Below, piece by piece: positions 196-57,422 of a stretch of 64,000 nt of DNA. Position 1 is the stretch's first letter; each line of letters starts with the position of its first letter. Origin of the DNA: Mustelus asterias (lineage: Eukaryota); contig NC_135804.1 in the NCBI RefSeq assembly GCF_964213995.1, forward strand, positions 99,572,001 to 99,636,000, written 5' to 3'. The position numbers were made by a program, and so were the translations under genes. Below the pieces are notes generated by a model. That model was not told where the DNA came from and ran no database searches. It saw only the letters and a list, made by a program, of their open reading frames with translations.

Positions 196-322
196 AATGG
201 TCTGTTAGAGTTCCCCAAAACACTGAAGGAACAGTGATGTAATTTCAAGTTAAAATGATGTACTACTTGGAGGTTGTTATGTATTTATTCCTATTGGCTC
301 ATTTGAGCTCTGCTATATGTAC

Positions 323-1329
323 ATGATGTGGAGATGCTGGCGTTGGACTGGGGTGAACACAGTAAGAAGTCTCACAACACCAGGTTAAAGTTTATAGAGT
401 ACCCTTCGTCATCCAGTACTTCCCCGGAGCGGAGAAGCTACGGCATCTCCTCCAGAGCCTTCAACATGTCATTGATGAAGATGAACATCTCGCCAAGGTC
501 ATTCCCACACCCCCACTTCTTGCCTTCAAACAACCACGCAACCTCAAACAGACCATTGTCCACAGCAAACTACCCAGCCTTCAGGAGAACAGTGACCACG
601 ACACCACACAACCCTGCCACAGCAACCTCTGCAAGACGTGCCGGATCATCGATACGGATGCCATCATCTCACGTGAGAACATCATCTACCAGGTACACGG
701 TACCTACTCTTGCAACTCGGCCAACATTGTCTACCTGATACGCTGCAGGAAAGGATGTCCCGAGGCATGGTACATTGGGGAAACCATGCAGACGCTATGA
801 CAACGGATGAATGAACACCGCTCGACAATCACCAGGCAAGACTGTTCTCTTCCTGTGGGGGAGCACTTCAGCAGTCACGGGCATTCAGCCTTGGATCTTC
901 AGGTAAGCGTTCTCCAAGGCGGCCTTCACGACAGCGCAGAGTCGCTGAACAGAAACTGATAGCCAAGTTCCGCACACGCGAGGACGGCCTAAACCGGGAT
1001 GTTGGATTTATGTCACATTATCAGTAACCCCCACAGCTTTCCCCCTGGACTTGCAGAATCTCACTAGCTGTTCTGTCTGGAGACAATACACATCTCTTTG
1101 ACCTGTGTTTGATGCTCCCTCTACCCACATTGTCTGTACCTTTAAGACCTGGCTGGCTGTAGGGATTCGCATTCTAATTAGTATTCTGTAACTTGATTTC
1201 TGTGTCTGTGCACTGTTTGAGAGCACATTTCCACTCCATCTGATGAAGGAGCAGTGCTCCGAAAGCTTATGGTATTTGCTACCAAATAAACCTGTTGGAC
1301 TTTAACCTGGTGTTGTGAGACTTCTTACT
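323..1329 (+). mobile_element. Penelope-like element, 5'-truncated (GIY-YIG endonuclease end plus 3' terminus), with a short inverted terminal copy at 323-390
   Basis: Encodes CNSANIVYLIRCRKGCPEAWYIGET (GIY-YIG-type); highly similar to 50650-51687. Segment 361-390 is the reverse complement of 1300-1329. Confidence 0.88.
1236..1272 (+). ncRNA. Minimal type I hammerhead ribozyme motif in PLE terminus
   Basis: CCAT-CTGATGA-A-GGAGC agt GCTCC-GAAA-GC-TT-ATGG: conserved core, 5-bp stem II, CCAT/ATGG stem I, palindromic AAGCTT at stem III. Confidence 0.8.
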
Positions 1330-1920
1330 ATATTAATGTACATACCTGAAATGATGTAATAGACCTCATGCAGGAAACAGAAAGAGAAGCAGCAGCCATG
1401 GAAGAGGTCTCACACTATTAATGAAGTTTCATTCATTTTAACCAAAGTCTGTCCAGCGTATCAAATCAACAATACACAACAAAAACTGGCGATGAGGACC
1501 ACAGACATGCACTTGCTAGCCACCTGGAAAAGTTGGAACGCAAAGAAAACTTTTACACGTCCTATGGACACTAACGGGCTAGGTGGACATGAGTAAATGA
1601 CACAAGAGCTAGCTGTAATAAATAAGAGGTTGAAGCTCAATCAGGTACCTTGTGTGTAAGAAAATCGAAGTAACTGCTGGGAACACGGTTGCGAAGTGTG
1701 CATACGGAAACCTGCTCAAGTGAAAAAAATGGTGGGAGGTCTCTGCAACATGGAGCCTTTTGATGAAAATGTGGAGTAATGGAGTTCTTAAACTGAGCAT
1801 TTTGACTATTTCATGCAGGAAACAAAATAGCTGAAGATATTATGGTGCCCACTTTCCTGAGTGTGATGGGGGAGGAAAATCCTTTCACTTCCTTCATAGT
1901 CTAGTGTAACCTGACAAACC

Positions 1921-3493: not shown

Positions 3494-4632
3494 CAAGGAC
3501 AAAAAGTTTTGGCTCTGAACTATTTGGAACTAATAGGTTCCTGCTACAGTGCTTGCACAGACCTGTCTCTTATACTGTTGAGACCAGGGATGACATTTTC
3601 TGGAGAGATATGCAGATTAGTTATTGGCTGGAAGGACAGATCTGCCAAATCTGGAGCCTGATGAAAATTCAGGATCAGACTTACTAAGTCCTGACTTGAA
3701 CCTTACGACAACCCCTGCACTACCAGACACTGTTGAGAAAAGCAACATCTCACCTTCTGCTCCAGTGCAGAGATAACCTCTAGTTCCTACCTCAATGCTG
3801 GTTAAATCAACCTTGGATGACATCAATGCAAAAATGAAGACGCCAGGGTTTCCCATCAGTGTGAAGAAGATGCCAGAGGTCTGTCGTCAACTGTTCTGAG
3901 AGTGATGACCTCCAGACTGCTTGACTTATTAGAAGTGACTGTCTTGTTGATTATTGTTCATATTGAACTTGTTTTGAACTTCTTTGGGGATGTTCAATTT
4001 ATGGAATGAGGAAATGTATTTGTATTTATCCCCAAAGGCTCACTGAAGCTATGCTTTATTAATGAATGCACCGGAAATGATGTAACAGACCTAGTGTGGG
4101 AAGCAGGAAGAGAAGTAGCATGGAAGAGATCACACACCATTAATAAAGCTCTATTCATTTTAAGAAAAGTCTATCACACGTATCACATCTTCACTACACA
4201 ACACAGGAGAACTGGCAGGTAGTAGTTTTCCCATGCATCTGCTGCCCTGTTCTTCTAGTAGAAGTTGCAAGTTTGAGATGTGCTATCGAAGGAGCCTTGG
4301 TGAATTACTATAGTGCATCGTGTAGATGGTATACAAAGTTTCCTCCATGTGCCAGTGGTGGAAGAAATGAGTATTTAAGGTGGCAGATTCACACGGGCTG
4401 CAGTACCTTGGAAAATGTTGATTTTTTTTTTGCATTGTTGGAGCTGCACTTATCCAGATATGTGGAGGATATTCCATCATACATCTGACTTGTGCTTTGT
4501 AGATGGTGGACATGCTTTGGGGAGCCATGAAATAAATCATACACAGAATTTCCACCCTTTAACCTACTCTTGTAGCCATGTATTTATATGGCTAGTCCAG
4601 TTGGGCTTCTATGGTGAGAGAAGTAGATTTAT

Positions 4633-22644: not shown

Positions 22645-24997
22645 TGTCTTGTGCTTAAACAAAGGAGACTACAAAGGGATGAGGGAGGAGTTGGCTAAGG
22701 TAGACTGGGAGCAAAAACTTTATGGTGGGACAATTGAGGAACAGTGGAGGACTTTCAAAGTGATCTTTCACAGTGCTCAGCAAAAGCATGTACCAGTGAT
22801 AAGGAAGGACTGTAGTAAAAGAGATATGATGTGGAGATGCCGGCGTTGGACTGGGGTAAACACAGTAAGAAGTTTAACAACGCCAGGTTAAAGTCCAACA
22901 GGTTTATTTGGTAGCAAATGTTTTGCTACCAAATAAACCTGTTGGACTTTAACCTGGTGTTGTTAAACTTCTTACTGTAAAAGAGATAATCAGCCATGGA
23001 TATCTAAGGAAATAAAGGAGGGTATCAAATTGAAAGAAAATGCATACAAAGTGGCAAAGATTAGTGGGAAACTAGAGGATTGGGAAATCGTTAAAGGTCA
23101 GCAGAAAGCCACAAAAAAAGCTATAAAGAAACGTAAGATGGATTATGAGAGTAAACTAGCTCAAAATATAAAAACAGATAGCAAAAGTTTCGACAAATAT
23201 ATAAAACGAAAAAGAGTGGCTAAAGTAAACATTGGTCCTTTGGAGGATGAGAAGGGGGATGTAATAACTGGAAATGAGAAAATGGCTGAGGCATTGAATA
23301 AGTATTTTGTGTTGGTCTTCACAGTGGAAGACACAAATAACAGGCCAAAAATTGATGACAGGAAGGCTATGGCAGGGAGAACCTAGAAACTATCATTATC
23401 ACGAAAGAGGTAGTGTTGGGCAAGTTAATGGGGCTAAAGGTAGACAAGTCTCCTGGCCCTGATGGAATGCATCCCAGGGTACTAAAAGAGATGGCAGGAG
23501 AAATAGCAAATGCGCCAGTGGTAATTTACCGAAATTCGCTTGACTCTGGGGTGGTTCCCGCAGAATGGAAAACAGCAAATGTGACACCACTGTTTTAAAA
23601 AGGAGGTAGACAAAAGGCGGGTAACTATAGGCCGGTTCGCTTAACTTCTGTAGTAGAGAAAATGCTTGAATCTATCATCAAGGAAGAAATATATAATGTT
23701 GAATATAAATTGTCCCATTGGTAAGACGCAGCATGGATTCATGAAGGGAAGGTCATGTTTGACTAATTTGGTGAAATTCTTTGAGAACATTACATGTGCA
23801 GTGGACAATGGGGAACCTGTGGATATGGTGTATCTGGATTTCCAGAAGGCATTTGACAAGGTGCCGCACCAAAGGCTGCTCCATAAGATAAAGGTGCACG
23901 GTGTTACGGGTAACGTATTAGCATGGATAGAGGATTGGTTAACTAATGGGTATTTTTCTGGTTGGCATCAGTGACTAGTGGTGTGCCTCAGGGATCAGTG
24001 TTGGGACCGCAATGTTTTACGATTTACATAGATGATTTGGAGTTGGGGACCAAATGTAGTGTGTCAAAATTCGCAGATGACACTAAGATGAGTGGCAGAG
24101 CAAAGTGTGCAGAGGATGCTGAAAGTCTGCAAAGGGATATAGATAGTCTAATTGAGTGGGAAAGGGTCTGGCAGATGGAGTATAATGTTGGTAAATGTGA
24201 GGTCATCCATTTTGGTAGGAATAACAGCAAAATGGACTATTATTTAAATGGTAAAAAATTGCAGCATGCTGCTGTGCAGAGGGACCTGGGTGTCCTTGTG
24301 CAGGAATCTCAAGGAGTTGGTTTGCAGGTGCAGGAGGTAATTAAGAAGGCAAATGGAATTTTGTCCTTTATTGCTAGAGGGATGGAGTTTAAAAACAGCG
24401 AGGTTATGTTGCAGCTGTATAAGGTGCAGGTGAGGCCACACCTGGAGTACTGTGTACAATTTTGGTCTCCTTACTTGAGAAAGGATATACTGGCACTGGA
24501 GGGGGTGCAGAGGAGATTCATTAGATTGATTCTGGAGTTGAGAGGGTTGGCTTATGAGGAGAGACTGAGTAGACTGGGGCTATACTCATTGGAATTCAGA
24601 AGAATGAGGGGAGAGCTTACTGAAACATATAAGATTATGAAGGGAATAGATAAGATAGAAGCAGGGAAGTTGTTTCCACTGGCAGGTGAAACTAGAACTA
24701 GGGGGCATAGCCTCAAAATAAGGGGAAGCAGATTTAGGACTGAGTTTAGGAGGAACTTCTTCACACAAAGGATTGTGAATCTGTGGAATTCCCTGCCCAG
24801 TGAAGCAGTTGAGGCTACCTCATTGAATGTTTTTAAGGCAAGGATGGATAAATGTTTGAACAGTAAAGGAATTAAGGGTTATGGTGAACGGGTGGGTAAG
24901 TGGAGCTGAGTCCACGAAAAGATCAGCCATGATCTTATTGAATGGCGGAGCGGGCTCGAGGGGCCCGATGCCTACTCCTGCTCCTAGTTCTTATGTT
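22645..24997 (+). mobile_element. 5'-truncated CR1 LINE, frameshifted ORF2
   Basis: KSPGPDG, QHGF, DFQKAFD, GVPQGSVLGP, FADD spread over several frames; CR1 3'UTR ending gttcttatgtt. Confidence 0.92.
22826..22977. mobile_element. Minimal fold-back Penelope derivative (56-bp hairpin plus 38-nt tail) inserted into CR1
   Basis: Arms 22863-22918 and 22922-22977 with a single mismatch and 3-nt loop; TSD gtaaaagagata at 22815-22826 and 22977-22988. Confidence 0.9.
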
Positions 24998-48404: not shown

Positions 48405-50289
48405 GCTTATTTTCAATGTACTCCTCGATACACACTATTGCCAAGATTAATTTGACTTAGTCTGTGGCATCTTACTAAGAGAGTGACTCGGATAGTTATT
48501 CCAGTCATTCCACGCATTTTAGAATCAACCAGCATTTATTATCCATGTCAGTGAACCTAACTTTCTGAATTTGCAGCTGAGACATGGTTGTCCATGTTCT
48601 ACACTTTAAAGCTGACTTGCAATCCCTTATTCTTACATTAGTTAAGCAAATGTGTGAAAAGTGAGAAATTAGCATTATTACCAGTTTATAGCATTTGACT
48701 GTGAGGCCTGTTTTCAAGTTGCAACTGCTCTGTTTATGCCTGTACATAGTTTCGTAGATGGACAAAAATTACTGGTGCCAACCATTCTGATTTTTCAGTG
48801 GACATTCATTTAGGCAATTGTGCCAGAAACAGGCAGCTCCCTAGCTGAAATAGGGATCAGTGACATAATTGAGAGTCCAGCATGATTTTTATATCTATTA
48901 GTATTGTTACAACATCCACAATCCACCCAAAAATCAGTGGATGTAAAGATTGAGAGGTGACCATTCCAGCGCTGCTTAGAGATATTGGTCTGCTCACATT
49001 TAAAATGATGCAACAGCTTAGGTTATATATTTCTGGTAATTTATTAGATTCTTTGCAAGTTGTTCAATTTTAAAGCAGTTGCAGAGGCTATGAATCTTTC
49101 AGAAACCTGAAGGGGATTAAGAAAGAGTACAGCAGCAAAGATTGAAGGTGAATATGGAGCTACACCTGCAGCAATGACAGATAGAAGAATCATAATCAAA
49201 GATATTCTTATGCTCTCCACAAAGTCTAAATGCCCAGAGTAACACACATGCGCTTCTCTGAGGAGCACTGCATAAGGAGCCTGTTCGACACTGGAAGGCT
49301 GTCAAATAGTTGCATCACCCCTTATAAAAAGACCTGCAAACCTGTTGCCGTAGCTGGCCCTGCATTTTCTGCTGCAGTCCATGTCAGTATAATCCTGAAA
49401 TTCTTTGCCTTCTGCTGCTTCGAGGCTGCCAAAATGGAATCAGTAACAGCAGTTAATCTGCAGTTCATGCTTGTGTTAAACAGGTGACTGATGCCATGTT
49501 TGGCACAGCAAAGGTTTATGCTATATTCCCCAAGGATACCTGAAAGCACGAGGAGACTGAGATTTGCACAGATTGCATGCAGTCTTCCCTCAAGTCATGG
49601 GCGTTAACTGCACCAACCCATGGGCTCTTTTTAACAATCCCGGTGTTGTGAATTGCAAGAGCTTTCACTTTATTAAGGTATAATTTTCATGCAATCACCA
49701 GCAACTGCCAGGATGGTTTTACATTGCAGCAGTTAACCTCTACTCTGCATTGCACACCATCCCCATCACTCACCACTACCTCCCCGAAACCCATCCCCCC
49801 ACCGCCCCCATTCTTTTTGACTGCACAGCAGGCAAATGCATAGATATTTGGAGACAAATATTAGACTTATATTAGACTTGATGGATGGGATTTTATGGCC
49901 AAACTTGTCTCAACCGTAAAATCCTGCCCCGAGGTCAACAGACTTTCTCATTGTCTGTCCCTCGCCTCCTCCGATTCCTGTGGCGGACGGGGCACTAAAA
50001 TTCTGGCGGATGTTTCCAGCTCACTTTTACCCAGTTTCCCATATTCTGCCCTTCATAAGCTTGAGGATATCAGAAAATCTGCTGTTCTTGTCACGTTCTG
50101 TTTCACTATCACATCTGTGCTTGCTGACCTCAGTTATTTCCTTGTTAAGCAACATCTCGATTTTAAAATTCTCATTCTTTCTTTTCAAACCTCACCATGG
50201 CTACATCCCTTTCTATCTCTGTCAACCTTTCTAGTAAGAGTTTTAACAACACCAGGTTAAAGTCCAACAGGTTTATTTGGTAGCAAATG

Positions 50290-50326
50290 CCATTAGCTTT
50301 CGGAGCGCTGCTCCTTCGTCAGATGG
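50290..50326 (-). ncRNA. Minimal hammerhead ribozyme motif
   Basis: Reverse complement CCATCTGACGAAGGAGCAGCGCTCCGAAAGCTAATGG. Confidence 0.8.
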
Positions 50327-51593
50327 AGTGGATATCTGCTCTCAAACAGGGCATACAGAGACACAAAATCAAGTTACAGAATACTGATTAGAATGCGAAT
50401 CGCTACAGCCAACCAGGTCTTAAAGATACAGACAATGTGAGTGGTGGGAGCATTAAGCACAGGTTAAAGAGATGTGTATTGTCTCCGGACAGGACAGCCA
50501 GTGAGATTCTGCAAGTCCAGGAGGCAAGCTGTGGGGGTTACTGATAGTGTGACATAAACCCAAGACCCCAGTTTAGGCCGTCCTCATGTGTGCGGAACTT
50601 GGCTATCAGTTTCTGCTCCGCGACTCTGCGCTTTCGTGTGTCGTGAAGGATATGGCGCTCGGCTCATCGATCGACAGTTCCGACGCGCCACAGCAAAAAA
50701 CCACACCGACCTCCTCAGAAGACAAACACGGGACATGGTGGACAGAGTACCCTTCGTCGTCCAGTACTTCCCTGGAGCAGAGAAGCTATGGCATCTCCTC
50801 CAGAGCCTTCAACATGTCATTGATGAAGACGAACATCTCACCAAGGCCATCCCCACACCCCCACTTCTTGCCTTCAAACAACCGCACAACCTCAAACAGA
50901 CCATTGTCCGCAGCAAACTTCCCAGCCTTCAGGAGAACAGTGATCACGACACCACACAACCCTGCCACAGCAACCTCTGCAAGACATGCCGGATCATCGA
51001 CACGGATGCCATCATCTCACGTGAGAACACCATCTACCAGGTACATGGTACCTACTCTTGCAACTCGGCCAACGTTGTCTACCTGATACACTGCAGGAAA
51101 GGATGTCCCGAGGCATGGTACATTGGGGAAACCATGCAGGCACTATGACAATGGATGAACGAACACCGCTCGACAATCACCATGCAAGACTGTTCTCTTC
51201 CTGTGGGGGAGCACTTCAGCGGTCACGGGCATTCAGCCTCTGATCTTCAGGTAAGCGTTCTCCAAGGCAGCCTTCACGACACATGACAGCGCAGAGTCGC
51301 TGAGCAGAAACTGATAGCCAAGTTCCGCACACATGAGGACGGCCTAAACCGGGATCTTGGGTTTATGTCACACTATCAGTAGCCCCCACAGCTTGCCTCC
51401 TGGACTTGCAGGATCTCACTGGCTGTCCTGTCTGGAGACAATACACATCTCTTTAACCTGTGCTTAATGCTCCCTCCACTCACGTTGTCTGTATCTTTAA
51501 GGCCTGGTTGGCTGTAGAGATTCGCATTCTAATCAGTATTCTGTAACTTGATATTGTGTCTCTGTATGCCCTGTTTGAGAGCAGATATCCACT

Positions 51594-51630
51594 CCATCTG
51601 ACGAAGGAGCAGCGCTCCGAAAGCTAATGG
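51594..51630 (+). ncRNA. Minimal hammerhead ribozyme motif
   Basis: CCAT-CTGACGA-A-GGAGC agc GCTCC-GAAA-GC-TA-ATGG. Confidence 0.82.
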
Positions 51631-53254
51631 CATTTGTTACCAAATATACCTGTTGGACTTTAACCTGGTGTTGTTAAAACTCTTACTGTATTTACCCCAG
51701 TCCAACGCCGGCATCTCCACATCATAACCTTTCTAGTCCCAGAACCCTCCAAGATACCTGCCTAGTTCTGGCCTCTAATACATCTCCAATTTTAATTGCT
51801 GCACCACAGGTGGACACAACTTCAACTACTAAGACCTTAAGCTCTGGAACTCCCTTTTTAAACTGCTCCGCCTTTCTACCTGTCTTTCCTGCTTTAAAAC
51901 ACTCCTTAGAACTTACCTCTTTTACCATCTGGCAATTTTGTCTGGTAATATTTGGTAATAGTTTATGTGACTCAATGTCAGGTTTTATCCTATAATTCTC
52001 TGGTGAAGATATACTTTGTTAAAAGCGTCCATGATTCCTCAGGAGTTTAACTTCAGTGCGGTTACATTCATGCGACCTTACTGAGCAGACGTTTGGAATT
52101 CTTTCCCACCTGGAATGATTTGATGGGTTCCTATGATTTAACCAAGAAGGCATGTCCTACAAGATATTGGTTTGTTGAGCACTGGGAATGGAATAACCCA
52201 CAGCACTGTAGAATGAGGGAGGTGAGACTGATGGCATAATGGATGGTGAAGAAACGGGAGAACTCCGAAACCAGCCTTTCGTTCGAGCTCTTCAGCAGCA
52301 GCTCATTGAGGAATTATCCAACATAAAAATTCCTGTTTATCTTGGCTCCATAAAAATACGTTGAACCTCTGCTGGTCGCTAGGTAGCCCGAACTTTGGGA
52401 TGTGCTCCGGATATGAACAATGCTGGGAAATCATTCTTGACATTCCTCGCTCAATCAACACCTCCAAAAATCAGATCAATTGATCAGCCATCGCCTTGTT
52501 TTTAACCGTCATGCTGATGCAGAATGACTGCTGGATTTGCCAACATTTCAATCATCGCACTCCAAACATAATTAATGGTGTGAAATGATTTGAGATGTTT
52601 TGACAAAGTGATAAGGTGGTGTATAAGTGTAATGATTTATTTCTTATGTTCAGATCAGTCATTACTTTTGATGCACCAAAATTAACCAGCCCTTAGTATG
52701 AACTCAATCTGCCCCAAACAGACTTTGACAGAAATAATCATTCTTTTCCAATGTAGTTCAAAAACAAGTTTTTAAAATGGAGACTGGTAGGGGTGAATGG
52801 CCTACTCCTGCTTCTAGTTTCTATGACTAATCTTTTTGGCCAGCTACAAAATAATGGAGCAGAGAGATCAGAGGGCAGATATTCTCTGAAGTCACAATTT
52901 GATATCCTTCGCCCCTACTTGAGAATAAAAAGATACTCAAACAATTATTGAAATTACCACATGACACCATAACAGCTCTCTTTGCCTCAATGTGACTTTG
53001 CCAGTAATAAATCAGCATCAAATGGGGTAATCTTTCCTTTGGGCAATAATGTATAATGAATAATAATAATGCAGTCGTCTATCGTGCAACTTTCACCATT
53101 TCCATTTCCACTGAATCTTCAGCTTGCGTAGAATCTGCGAGACAGCCAAGCTTTAAACTCTCCACACTTTGGAACAGCATAAAATACAAGAGATAACCTA
53201 TCAATTCGCAGTGTTTAGGCGGGCAGTGGTGTGGGATATAAGGCCAGACACCTA

Positions 53255-55350: not shown

Positions 55351-56064
55351 GCTGGCACCGTGCCCATTAGCTTCAAGTAGTCAATCAATAGAAATCTGTA
55401 AATAACAAAGTTAACCATGAGCTGACTAAGGGGGTTGGGAAATAAATTGAATTTTTATAAAATTCTGTCCAACGCTTGACTCGAGCAGAGTTTTGGACTA
55501 ATATTCTGGGGACTGTGAGCTCATACCCAATCACTGTCATGGATGCTCATCTTCAGCTCATTCAATTCACTTCATTCAACATCAAGAAATGCTGAGTCCA
55601 TTGAATACAACAAAGATAGTACGAAAGATTTGTGAACCAAAGCTAACACACATAAGTTCTGCTGTTCCAGTGCAGCTATAGCATTGGGGCTATATCAATC
55701 CAACAGAATGGAAAATGTCCAGGTACGTTGTGTCCACAAAATGCAAGACAAATCCAACACAGCCAATTACAGCTCTAACAACTCTAACTCCCAATCCTCA
55801 ACAAAGTGTTGGAAGCCAGTGATTTGCTTATTGATGCTCAGTTGTGTTTCATCAGAACCACTCAGTTCCAGGCCTCATTAGAGCTTTGGTCCAAATTTGG
55901 TCAAAAATGTTGAATCCCAGAGATGGGTGAGAATAACAGATGTCGACAGCAAGGCAGCATTTGGCAAAGTGTGGTATCATGAAACCATAGTAAAAGTTGA
56001 AGTCAATCGGGACTACAAAGGAGATTCTCCAATGGCTAGAATCATACCTGTCACAAAGAACGAT

Positions 56065-56323
56065 GGGTGGCATTGTAGCACCGTGGTTAGCACTGCTGCC
56101 TCACAGCGCCAGGAACCTGGGTTCAATTACTTGGGTAACTGTGTGGAGTTTACACGTTCCCTCTGTGCCTGAATGGGTTTCCTCTAGGTGCTCCAGTTTC
56201 TTCCCACAGTCCAAAGATGTGCAAGTTAGGTGGATTGGCCATGCTAAATTGCCCCTTAATGTCCAATATGTGTGTAGGATAGGTGGATTAACCATGCTAA
56301 ATGCACAGGGTTACTGGGATTAG
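56065..56323 (+). mobile_element. V-SINE, 3'-truncated by the PLE palindrome
   Basis: tRNA-like head plus V-core. Confidence 0.8.
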
Positions 56324-56554
56324 ATGGTGTGGAGATGCCAGCGTTGTACTGTGGTGGGCACAGTCAGAAGTCTCAGAACATCAGGTTAAAATCCAACAGG
56401 TTTATTTGGAATCATGAGCTTTCGGAGCGCTGCTCCTTCCTCAGGGGAGTGGCCACACACGTTTGCTACCAAATAAACCTGTTGGACTTTAACCTGGTGT
56501 GGTTAGACTCCTTACTGTGTTTACCCCAGTCCAACGCCGGCATCTCCAAATCAT
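56324..56554. mobile_element. Palindromic pair of PLE 3' ends, tails on both sides, hammerhead-like motif on minus strand (~56412-56448)
   Basis: 56324-56409 is the imperfect reverse complement of 56468-56554; minus strand CTGAGGAAGGAGCAGCGCTCCGAAAGCTC. Confidence 0.8.
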
Positions 56555-57422
56555 TTCAGTCCCAGCAACAGTTGCAGGAGTTTCTAAGGGGCGTGTCCTT
56601 GGCCTAATTATCTTCAACTGCTTCATCAATGATTTTCTGTAAGGTTCTTCATGTGGTTATTTGCTAATCCTGTACCGTGTCAGTTCTATTTGCATTTTCA
56701 CAGATAATGAAGCAGTCTGCTCCTAGAAGCAGCATGTCTAGGGCACCATCCAGACTGAAAAGTGGCAATTAACATTTTCACACCACACAACTGTGATAAA
56801 ATGACCATCTCCAACAAGATAAGAAAATTCACCCTGATGGTTTGAAGTGTAATGAGCAATTGTTTTTTCTTGATTTCTTCATAATTAATTTGCTCCATAG
56901 TTTGTGAAGATCTGGTGATGCTGATATAATTCAGATTGGTTGCTGTAAGTCAGTTTAGTGAGTCAAATTTAGGCGCCATTAATTCCAAGGCATAAACTGG
57001 GCGGGAAGTTAAGGTGAAAAGTTAAAGAATTTGTGTGATGCCGTTTATTAATATTCTGGTCAGGATAATGATCAGAGTGTTTTCCAGAGGTGGTGTGGGA
57101 TCTTCTTGAACAATTACAGTTTTTCAGATGGTACTCGCTCAGTTATTCTAAACACAGAATTCAAAGACTTTGAATGAGAGTGAAAGGGCAGTAAAATAAT
57201 AAGGATGACGTGTGTCTTGGAGAGAACTTGGAGATGCTTGTATTCATATTATATTGCTGCTATTGCCTTTGCTGGTATGGATCATAAGTCAGAATGATGC
57301 TGTTTAAGTAAGTTAGTGAGTTGCTATTGCGTACCTTCTATATATTGCAGCCATAATGTGCAATAGCGGAAAGGATGGATATTGAGCCCACTAAACTTTT
57401 TGTCCTGGATGGTGTTCAGTTT

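What the first reader, a model, noticed from the sequence alone, without database searches (positions are those of the whole stretch)
50224..51737. Fold-back Penelope insertions share a precise endpoint 38 nt from the 3' end
Seen: three separate insertions (323-1329, 22826-22977, 50233-51725) each consist of two oppositely oriented 3' ends. One arm carries a 38-nt tail (gtgtttaccccagtccaacgccggcatctccacatcat); the other stops at ...CTTACT(G) (1329, 22976/7, 50233). The internal switch point varies widely (paired arms of ~30, 56 and 417 bp), and two copies have clear 9-12-bp TSDs. The fixed point lies inside a predicted RNA stem (GTTGGACT 51652-51659 with AGTCCAAC 51699-51706) that also encloses a TTTAAC/GTTAAA hairpin. 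Established: PLEs often show inverted pseudo-LTRs and a short 3' extension. Inference: both target-DNA ends are primed on element RNA, one at the true 3' end and one at a structure-defined internal site, giving a stereotyped two-ended integration.
Basis: partly seen in the sequence, partly recalled or inferred. Interest (0 to 1): 0.7.

Follow-up and report, generated by a model that had tools for sequence, protein, structure and literature searches.

The report
Two-ended shark Penelope retrotransposon insertions
Three broken copies of a shark Penelope-like jumping gene each end in two inward-facing 3' ends that stop at two fixed points 38 bases apart, a layout already described for this class and likely made by copying from both cut ends of the target; the one new lead is that the insertion sites may share a symmetric DNA motif around a 12-base duplication.

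Summary
Copies at 323-1329, 22826-22976 and 50233-51725 are fold-back insertions of a shark Penelope-like element (Neptune-type linker, hammerhead motif), from three subfamilies, each with one tailed arm and one arm ending at CTTACT, 38 nt inside. The core idea is already published: inverted ends with a 30-40 nt tail on one side (PMC3846280, PMC8557442), and two reverse-transcription start sites bracketing the tail with both target strands extended (PMC11167929). New lead: all three copies admit a 12-nt duplication, and CTG-N2-[12]-N2-CAG flanks it in 4 of 4 discovery half-sites (P about 0.001) and 2 of 4 hold-out half-sites (P 0.003-0.01), which would mean sequence-specific, symmetric nicking. 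That rests on four sites only.

The parts
323..391 (-). Copy 1, short reversed arm: 38-nt tail plus 31 nt of pLTR
396..1329 (+). Copy 1, long forward arm: linker/GIY-YIG ORF remnant, 3' UTR/pLTR, ends at CTTACT without tail
310..322 (+). Copy 1 left flank: CTG (310-312), 2 nt, left copy of the duplication, 4 nt shorter than the right copy
1330..1341 (+). Copy 1 right duplication, 12 nt (16 with microhomologies); the outer half-site does not match CAG
   Evidence: paralogous empty site 4040-4080
1236..1272 (+). Minimal hammerhead ribozyme motif in copy 1 (predicted; activity untested)
   Evidence: motif scan, fold; no Rfam match
22826..22920 (-). Copy 2, reversed tailed arm; 5' end 4-5 nt downstream of the predicted hammerhead cut
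22922..22976 (+). Copy 2, forward tail-less arm ending at CTTACT; 5' end about 6 nt downstream of the predicted cut
22810..22826 (+). Copy 2 left target half-site: CTG (22810-22812), 2 nt, 12-nt duplication 22815-22826
22977..22993 (+). Copy 2 right target half-site: 12-nt duplication 22977-22988, 2 nt, CAG (22991-22993)
50219..50235 (+). Copy 3 left target half-site: CTG (50219-50221), 2 nt, 12-nt duplication 50224-50235 whose last 3 nt are shared with the element end
50233..50649 (-). Copy 3, reversed tail-less arm, 417 bp, with a hammerhead motif at about 50290-50326
50650..51725 (+). Copy 3, forward tailed arm
50648..51376 (+). Broken C-terminal ORF remnant: CX4CX2C linker finger and GIY-YIG endonuclease, two in-frame stops; 79% identical to shark RT-bearing protein P0005
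51594..51630 (+). Minimal hammerhead motif; predicted cut after 51626, 61 nt before the tail-less end and 99 nt before the tail end
   Evidence: cut position inferred from hammerhead numbering (own knowledge)
51652..51711 (+).
51688..51725 (+). 38-nt tail between the two fixed end points
51726..51742 (+). Copy 3 right target half-site: 12-nt duplication 51726-51737, 2 nt, CAG (51740-51742)
56324..56554 (.).

Best explanation
These are three separate, 5'-truncated insertions of a shark Penelope-like retrotransposon, each with two inward-facing 3' ends and a short target duplication, likely formed when the element's endonuclease nicked both target strands about 12 nt apart and each free DNA end likely primed reverse transcription on element RNA at one of two fixed, probably internal, start sites 38 nt apart. 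Steps: (1, shown) ends fall at CTTACT or at the tail end, arms within a copy share subfamily variants, duplications flank the unit; (2, inferred from the duplication) staggered nicks leave 3' overhangs; (3, inferred, with in vitro precedent in the Anolis element) both overhangs are extended, often helped by 1-3 nt of pairing with the RNA; (4, inferred) the two cDNAs stop at variable points, sometimes near the predicted hammerhead cut, and are joined head to head by end joining; (5, tentative) the nicks are placed relative to a CAG motif on each strand.
For: Anatomy and subfamily matching. Copy 1 has a short tailed arm and a long tail-less arm, so neither can template the other. Read-through translations of other shark copies: 13 of 14 informative right ends fall at or within a few nt of one of the two sites (9 tail end, 4 CTTACT), 1 mid-tail, among 15 proteins returned; P0038 and P0048 are whole asymmetric fold-backs, and the flanks of P0038 are compatible with an 11-14 nt duplication anchored at both junctions (7 of 293 unanchored random pairs reach 14). 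Microhomology at tail-less junctions totals 7 nt over 3 junctions, P = 0.014-0.027. PMC11167929: both strands cleaved and extended, two start sites bracket the tail, dimer predicted.
Against: Only four loci at DNA level; no genome-wide histogram was possible. The protein sample is biased (ends upstream of CTTACT would score too low to be found), resolves only to a codon and was read by eye. P0047 and locus 4 carry two tails. No activity was tested. The Anolis result is for the Poseidon clade, and its start site was reported as non-homologous to the cut DNA, whereas short microhomology is seen here. Copy 2, a near-perfect hairpin, fits self-priming equally well.
Confidence: 0.7

Rival explanations
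1. One target-primed cDNA folds back or switches template onto itself, and the endonuclease then cuts the intermediate at the tail boundary (self-priming and EN-resolution views in PMC3846280 and PMC8557442).
For: Copy 2 is a near-perfect hairpin (57 nt, 98%); in copy 3 the short arm lies wholly within the long arm. Both papers favoured such steps.
Against: In copy 1 the tail-less long arm cannot template the tail, and the 69-nt tailed arm cannot template 934 nt. The later in vitro work maps both tail boundaries to RT start sites.
Confidence: 0.15
2. One reading: one primer uses the true RNA 3' end, the other a site set by the GTTGGACT/AGTCCAAC stem, and every insertion takes one of each.
For: 3 of 3 simple window copies and P0038, P0048 are asymmetric; the stem pairs in 34 of 35 cells and reaches probability 0.85-0.89 in 2 of 6 folds; its arms look conserved in translations of the older subfamily while the loop varies (by eye).
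Against: No two-sided change; stem probability 0.34 or less in 4 of 6 folds (one of them lacks most of the 5' arm), rival stem 0.6-0.97 in 3 of 6; P0047 has two tails; P0046 and P0047 continue with Trp past the tail; asymmetry 5 of 7, P = 0.23; both sites are internal in PMC11167929.
Confidence: 0.1
3. Each copy is a single-primed retrocopy of a read-through transcript from an older inverted locus, so the fold-back is inherited, not made at insertion.
For: Arms within a copy share subfamily variants, as inheritance would also give.
Against: The far end would be a random truncation, yet it is precise in 3 of 3; switch points and subfamilies all differ.
Confidence: 0.05

Closest known systems
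Poseidon element PAc of Anolis carolinensis (PMC11167929)
   Same: Hammerhead motif, then two end points 30-40 nt apart bracketing the tail; both target strands extended; tail end 82-92 nt past the ribozyme cut by my subtraction from the paper's numbers, 99 nt here.
   Different: Different clade (no linker finger in Poseidon per PMC8557442); PAc cuts at ATT in AT-rich DNA and starts without homology, here a candidate CAG motif and 2-3 nt microhomology; the paper does not, in the text read, tie one start site to each end of a fold-back copy.
Pen2a_Av and relatives, Adineta vaga (PMC3846280)
   Same: Inverted pLTRs, a 31-bp tail optionally on one of them, 8-10 bp duplications.
   Different: Those units often hold direct pLTRs and whole ORFs; explained there by self-priming on an antisense template; AT-rich targets.
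Neptune/Nematis PLEs (as defined in PMC8557442)
   Same: C-terminal GIY-YIG with an upstream CX2-5CxxC linker; inverted 5'-truncated copy; tail often at one end only.
   Different: Neptune is described as biased to microsatellites; none of the four loci here lies in one, and a symmetric motif is suggested instead.
LINE-1 twin priming (recalled, not read here)
   Same: Second target strand primes on the same kind of RNA, giving an inverted 5' segment within one duplication.
   Different: In L1 the second primer lands at variable internal sites and the two segments barely overlap; here both start at fixed sites at the 3' end and overlap as an inverted repeat.

Membership tests
EN+ Penelope-like elements | C-terminal GIY-YIG endonuclease downstream of an RT in one ORF | tested here: met
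   Window remnants got no Pfam match alone (0 of 3), but are 79-92% identical to shark proteins with RVT_1 (P0005, E 5e-9, above cut-off) and GIY-YIG (P0001, E 2.5e-4, just below cut-off); Atlas clusters RT/HTH_animal/GIY-YIG at 0.97. The RT core itself is absent from the window copies.
EN+ Penelope-like elements | Telomerase-like RT clade by phylogeny | not tested
   No tree built; DKG and YIDD motifs present in P0005.
EN+ Penelope-like elements | Minimal hammerhead motif in the pLTR | tested here: met
   Core, stem I and stem II at 3 places; Rfam gave no hammerhead match; cleavage untested.
EN+ Penelope-like elements | Inverted 5'-truncated copy and optional 30-40 nt tail | tested here: met
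   3 simple copies, tail 38 nt.
EN+ Penelope-like elements | Partial-tandem units with the tail leading into the next ORF | tested here: inconclusive
   No tandem junction in the window; 2 of 9 tailed read-throughs continue with Trp; no full-length N terminus obtained.
Neptune/Nematis clades | CX2-5CxxC linker upstream of GIY-YIG | tested here: met
   CX4CX2C in the window ORF, P0001 and P0005.
Neptune clade | Placement in the RT tree (Neptune versus Nematis) | not tested
   No reference set at hand; the label 'Neptune-type' rests on the linker only.
Neptune clade | Microsatellite insertion bias (a tendency, not a strict criterion) | tested here: not met
   0 of 4 loci overlap a tandem repeat; small sample.

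The most novel reading that the evidence does not exclude
This shark Penelope family is a sequence-directed integrator: its GIY-YIG endonuclease, probably as a dimer, reads a symmetric site CTG-N16-CAG, nicks each strand 2 nt 5' of CAG to leave fixed 12-nt 3' overhangs, and each overhang is handed to one of the two RT start sites, so that fold-back copies are direct fossils of a two-subunit, two-primer reaction, some of them templated by hammerhead-cleaved RNA.
Probability: 0.4. Interest if true: 0.62.

Novelty: new member of a known kind. Interest (0 to 1): 0.38.

Why it matters
If the target motif holds, it matters more: the papers read describe PLE targets as AT-rich DNA or microsatellites, and leave second-strand steps and the origin of inverted ends open. 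A family with a defined symmetric site and fixed stagger would make those steps testable, both by counting copies in shark assemblies and with a defined in vitro substrate. Arm ends clustering at the predicted ribozyme cut would also bear on the open question of what PLE hammerheads do.

Tried and rejected
Rfam over the window: 5 weak matches, none a hammerhead; the miRNA-like ones are copy 2's hairpin. Bacterial/archaeal genome scan: 1 match, 21 nt only, chance. Plasmids and phages: no match. A third protein search in another frame (P0033, residues 176-231): nothing. Cluster members of the long shark proteins could not be looked up, so the ORF N terminus and its link to the tail stay open. 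No eukaryotic DNA collection was available, and metagenome and viral contigs stayed unchecked, so the genome-wide histogram was not made. Locus 4 as a test of the CAG motif was rejected: CAG does sit at 12+2, but the flank holds several CAGs and the tail end shares 5-6 nt with the host LINE. Locus 4 as a clean counter-example was rejected too: arms differ at 7 of 31 positions, no duplication, target deleted. The rival stem was entered one column off (its +1 slide, 95% paired, is the true register; one search has it right), and the inner hairpin one base off (corrected). One-sided changes in the rival stem are not counted as support: two are consistent with CpG decay. P0046 flank match (16 nt) is within the null and was dropped; P0046 was left out of the asymmetry count as ambiguous. 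No structure or complex was predicted.

Full report
Setting. The window is shark DNA: the ORF remnant in copy 3 is 92% identical to Mustelus asterias proteins and 81-82% to Heptranchias and Scyliorhinus proteins, and an exon near 25854-26314 matches neuroligin-3 best. The rest is largely LINE and SINE remains.

Observation. The three insertions are as described. Each has a reversed arm followed by a forward arm, both being 3' ends of the same element. One arm carries the 38-nt tail and the other stops at CTTACT. Over the 31 nt that all arms share, the two arms of copies 1, 2 and 3 differ at 0, 1 and 0 positions, against 2-4 between copies, so each copy is one event and the three come from different subfamilies. 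The tail-less junction has 2, 2 and 3 nt of microhomology with the target; CTTACT is the single position compatible with all three. A fourth locus (56324-56554) has two tailed arms, but they differ at 7 of 31 positions, there is no duplication, and parts of the host SINE and LINE are missing; it is best read as two insertions joined by a deletion (inference).

Identity. The remnant holds a CX4CX2C linker and a GIY-YIG domain; relatives with longer ORFs have the RT. A minimal hammerhead motif lies 61 nt before the tail-less end and 99 nt before the tail end. Rfam did not detect it, and its cut site is inferred from standard numbering. This is an endonuclease-bearing Penelope-like element of Neptune/Nematis type by the linker; no tree was built.

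Evidence from outside the window. No eukaryotic DNA could be searched, so I used chance translations of the pLTR in protein sets. Two searches returned 15 distinct proteins. Of 14 with a readable right end, 9 stop at or within a few nt of the tail end, 4 at or within a few nt of CTTACT, and 1 mid-tail (read by eye, codon resolution). Ends upstream of CTTACT would have been missed, but mid-tail ends would have been found more easily than tail-less ones, so the gap between the two peaks is informative. P0038 and P0048 are whole asymmetric fold-backs, P0047 has two tails, P0044 has a tailed left arm, and P0023 has a tail-less arm starting within 1 nt of CTTACT. Counting copies 1-3, P0038, P0048, P0047 and locus 4, 5 of 7 are asymmetric (P = 0.23; 5 of 6 without locus 4, P = 0.11); P0046 was left out as ambiguous. 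Two of 9 tailed ends continue with Trp, which suggests that the template runs on past the tail.

RNA structure. RNAalifold picks a rival stem with a small inner helix that covers the fixed point, also without covariation. Which stem wins depends on copy and context, the region folds no better than shuffles, and the inner TTTAAC/GTTAAA hairpin is improbable and broken in 4 of 7 arms folded. A structure may well mark the site, as the Anolis work suggests, but this one is not shown.

Mechanism. A direct duplication with element 3' ends facing both flanks is what two staggered nicks give if each 3' overhang primes cDNA synthesis. Copy 1 discriminates: its tail cannot come from its tail-less long arm, and its 934-nt arm cannot come from a 69-nt one, so two RNA-templated starts are needed. 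Whether both use one RNA, two pLTRs of a tandem RNA or two RNAs cannot be told. Three of 8 arms (both of copy 2 and the right arm of locus 4) begin 4-6 nt past the predicted ribozyme cut, and the right arm of P0048 begins at about the cut; these are two or three independent events, so this is a lead only.

Target-site lead. The longest exact duplication is 12 nt in copies 2 and 3, and reading outward, all 4 half-sites have CAG at positions 3-5. Simulated chance is 8e-5 at fixed register, 0.0014 with the register freedom that the microhomologies allow, 0.01 with very generous freedom. Held out: copy 1, whose 12-nt duplication is fixed by a paralog, matches on the left and misses on the right; P0023, inserted into an older copy of the ORF, matches on the right and has 2 of 3 on the left, the target being taken from the window's ORF copies. 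That is 2 of 4 exact, P = 0.003-0.01. In read-throughs, Gln stands at the predicted codon in 2 of 5 in-register tailed ends (P = 0.017; Gln may be CAA). Against: by eye, the flanks of P0037, P0038, P0041, P0043, P0047 and P0048 do not fit, P0038's duplication may be 11-14 nt, locus 4 is not a clean test, and the motif was found after looking. The site itself is common (29 in the window, as expected by chance), so it would be a preference, not a rare target.

Literature. PMC11167929: parts 1-3 of 4 of the text read (all results and methods), supplements 1 and 2 as extracted text only, figures unseen, supplements 3 and 4 not read; the unseen figures bear on exact start sites and target logos. 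It reports two start sites bracketing the tail, both strands extended, an ATT preference and no need for ribozyme cleavage in vitro. PMC8557442: passages and section 15: inverted truncated copies, tail often at one end only, microsatellite bias. PMC3846280: passages and Discussion: inverted pLTRs, 31-bp tail on one, 8-10 bp duplications, self-priming model. PMC2377424 and PMC6155905: passages. L1 twin priming is recalled. Eight searches (listings only) showed no paper on a symmetric PLE target motif, on twin priming in PLEs or on this shark family; subscription journals and Repbase were not searchable, so absence from print is not established.

Verdict. A real and well-formed example of a known architecture whose central mechanism has been shown in vitro in another clade: new member of a known kind, interest 0.38. 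The symmetric 12-nt target is the part worth following (probability about 0.4, interest about 0.6 if true).

Noticed in passing
window:22810-22993; 50219-51742; 310-1346: 12-nt duplications flanked by CTG-N2 and N2-CAG: 5 of 6 half-sites in copies 1-3 are exact.
   Followed up: partly
window:56324-56554: Fourth Penelope locus with tails on both arms, from two subfamilies, replacing the 3' end of a SINE and a short stretch of a LINE.
   Followed up: yes
window:51594-51630; 1236-1272; 50290-50326: Minimal hammerhead motifs with an extra A before stem II and a palindromic stem III remnant; locus 4's left arm has a changed core (about 56410-56450).
   Followed up: partly
window:22920-22922; 56462: Three arms begin 4-6 nt downstream of the predicted hammerhead cut, as if cleaved RNA was the template.
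   Followed up: partly
window:25854-26314: Coding exon on the + strand of a neuroligin gene, closest to neuroligin-3; the insertions probably lie in its introns or upstream region.
   Followed up: partly
window:5800-9667 (- strand): Near-complete CR1-type LINE: ORF1 with a GDSL/SGNH domain and ORF2 (endonuclease plus RT) in two frames.
   Followed up: no
window:51726-56565: The tail ends in CATCAT, and 2 of 9 outside read-throughs continue as TGG, which would make an ATG at the tail end, possibly the next ORF's start; unverified.
   Followed up: partly
P0009, P0020, P0033: Shark gene models for NOXP20-like, a cytochrome P450 and septin 5a include pieces of this element; may be annotation artefacts or exonisation.
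   Followed up: no
window:38560-39400 and 55700-56640: Two copies of the same LINE family are each interrupted by a SINE within about 60 nt of the same RT region.
   Followed up: no
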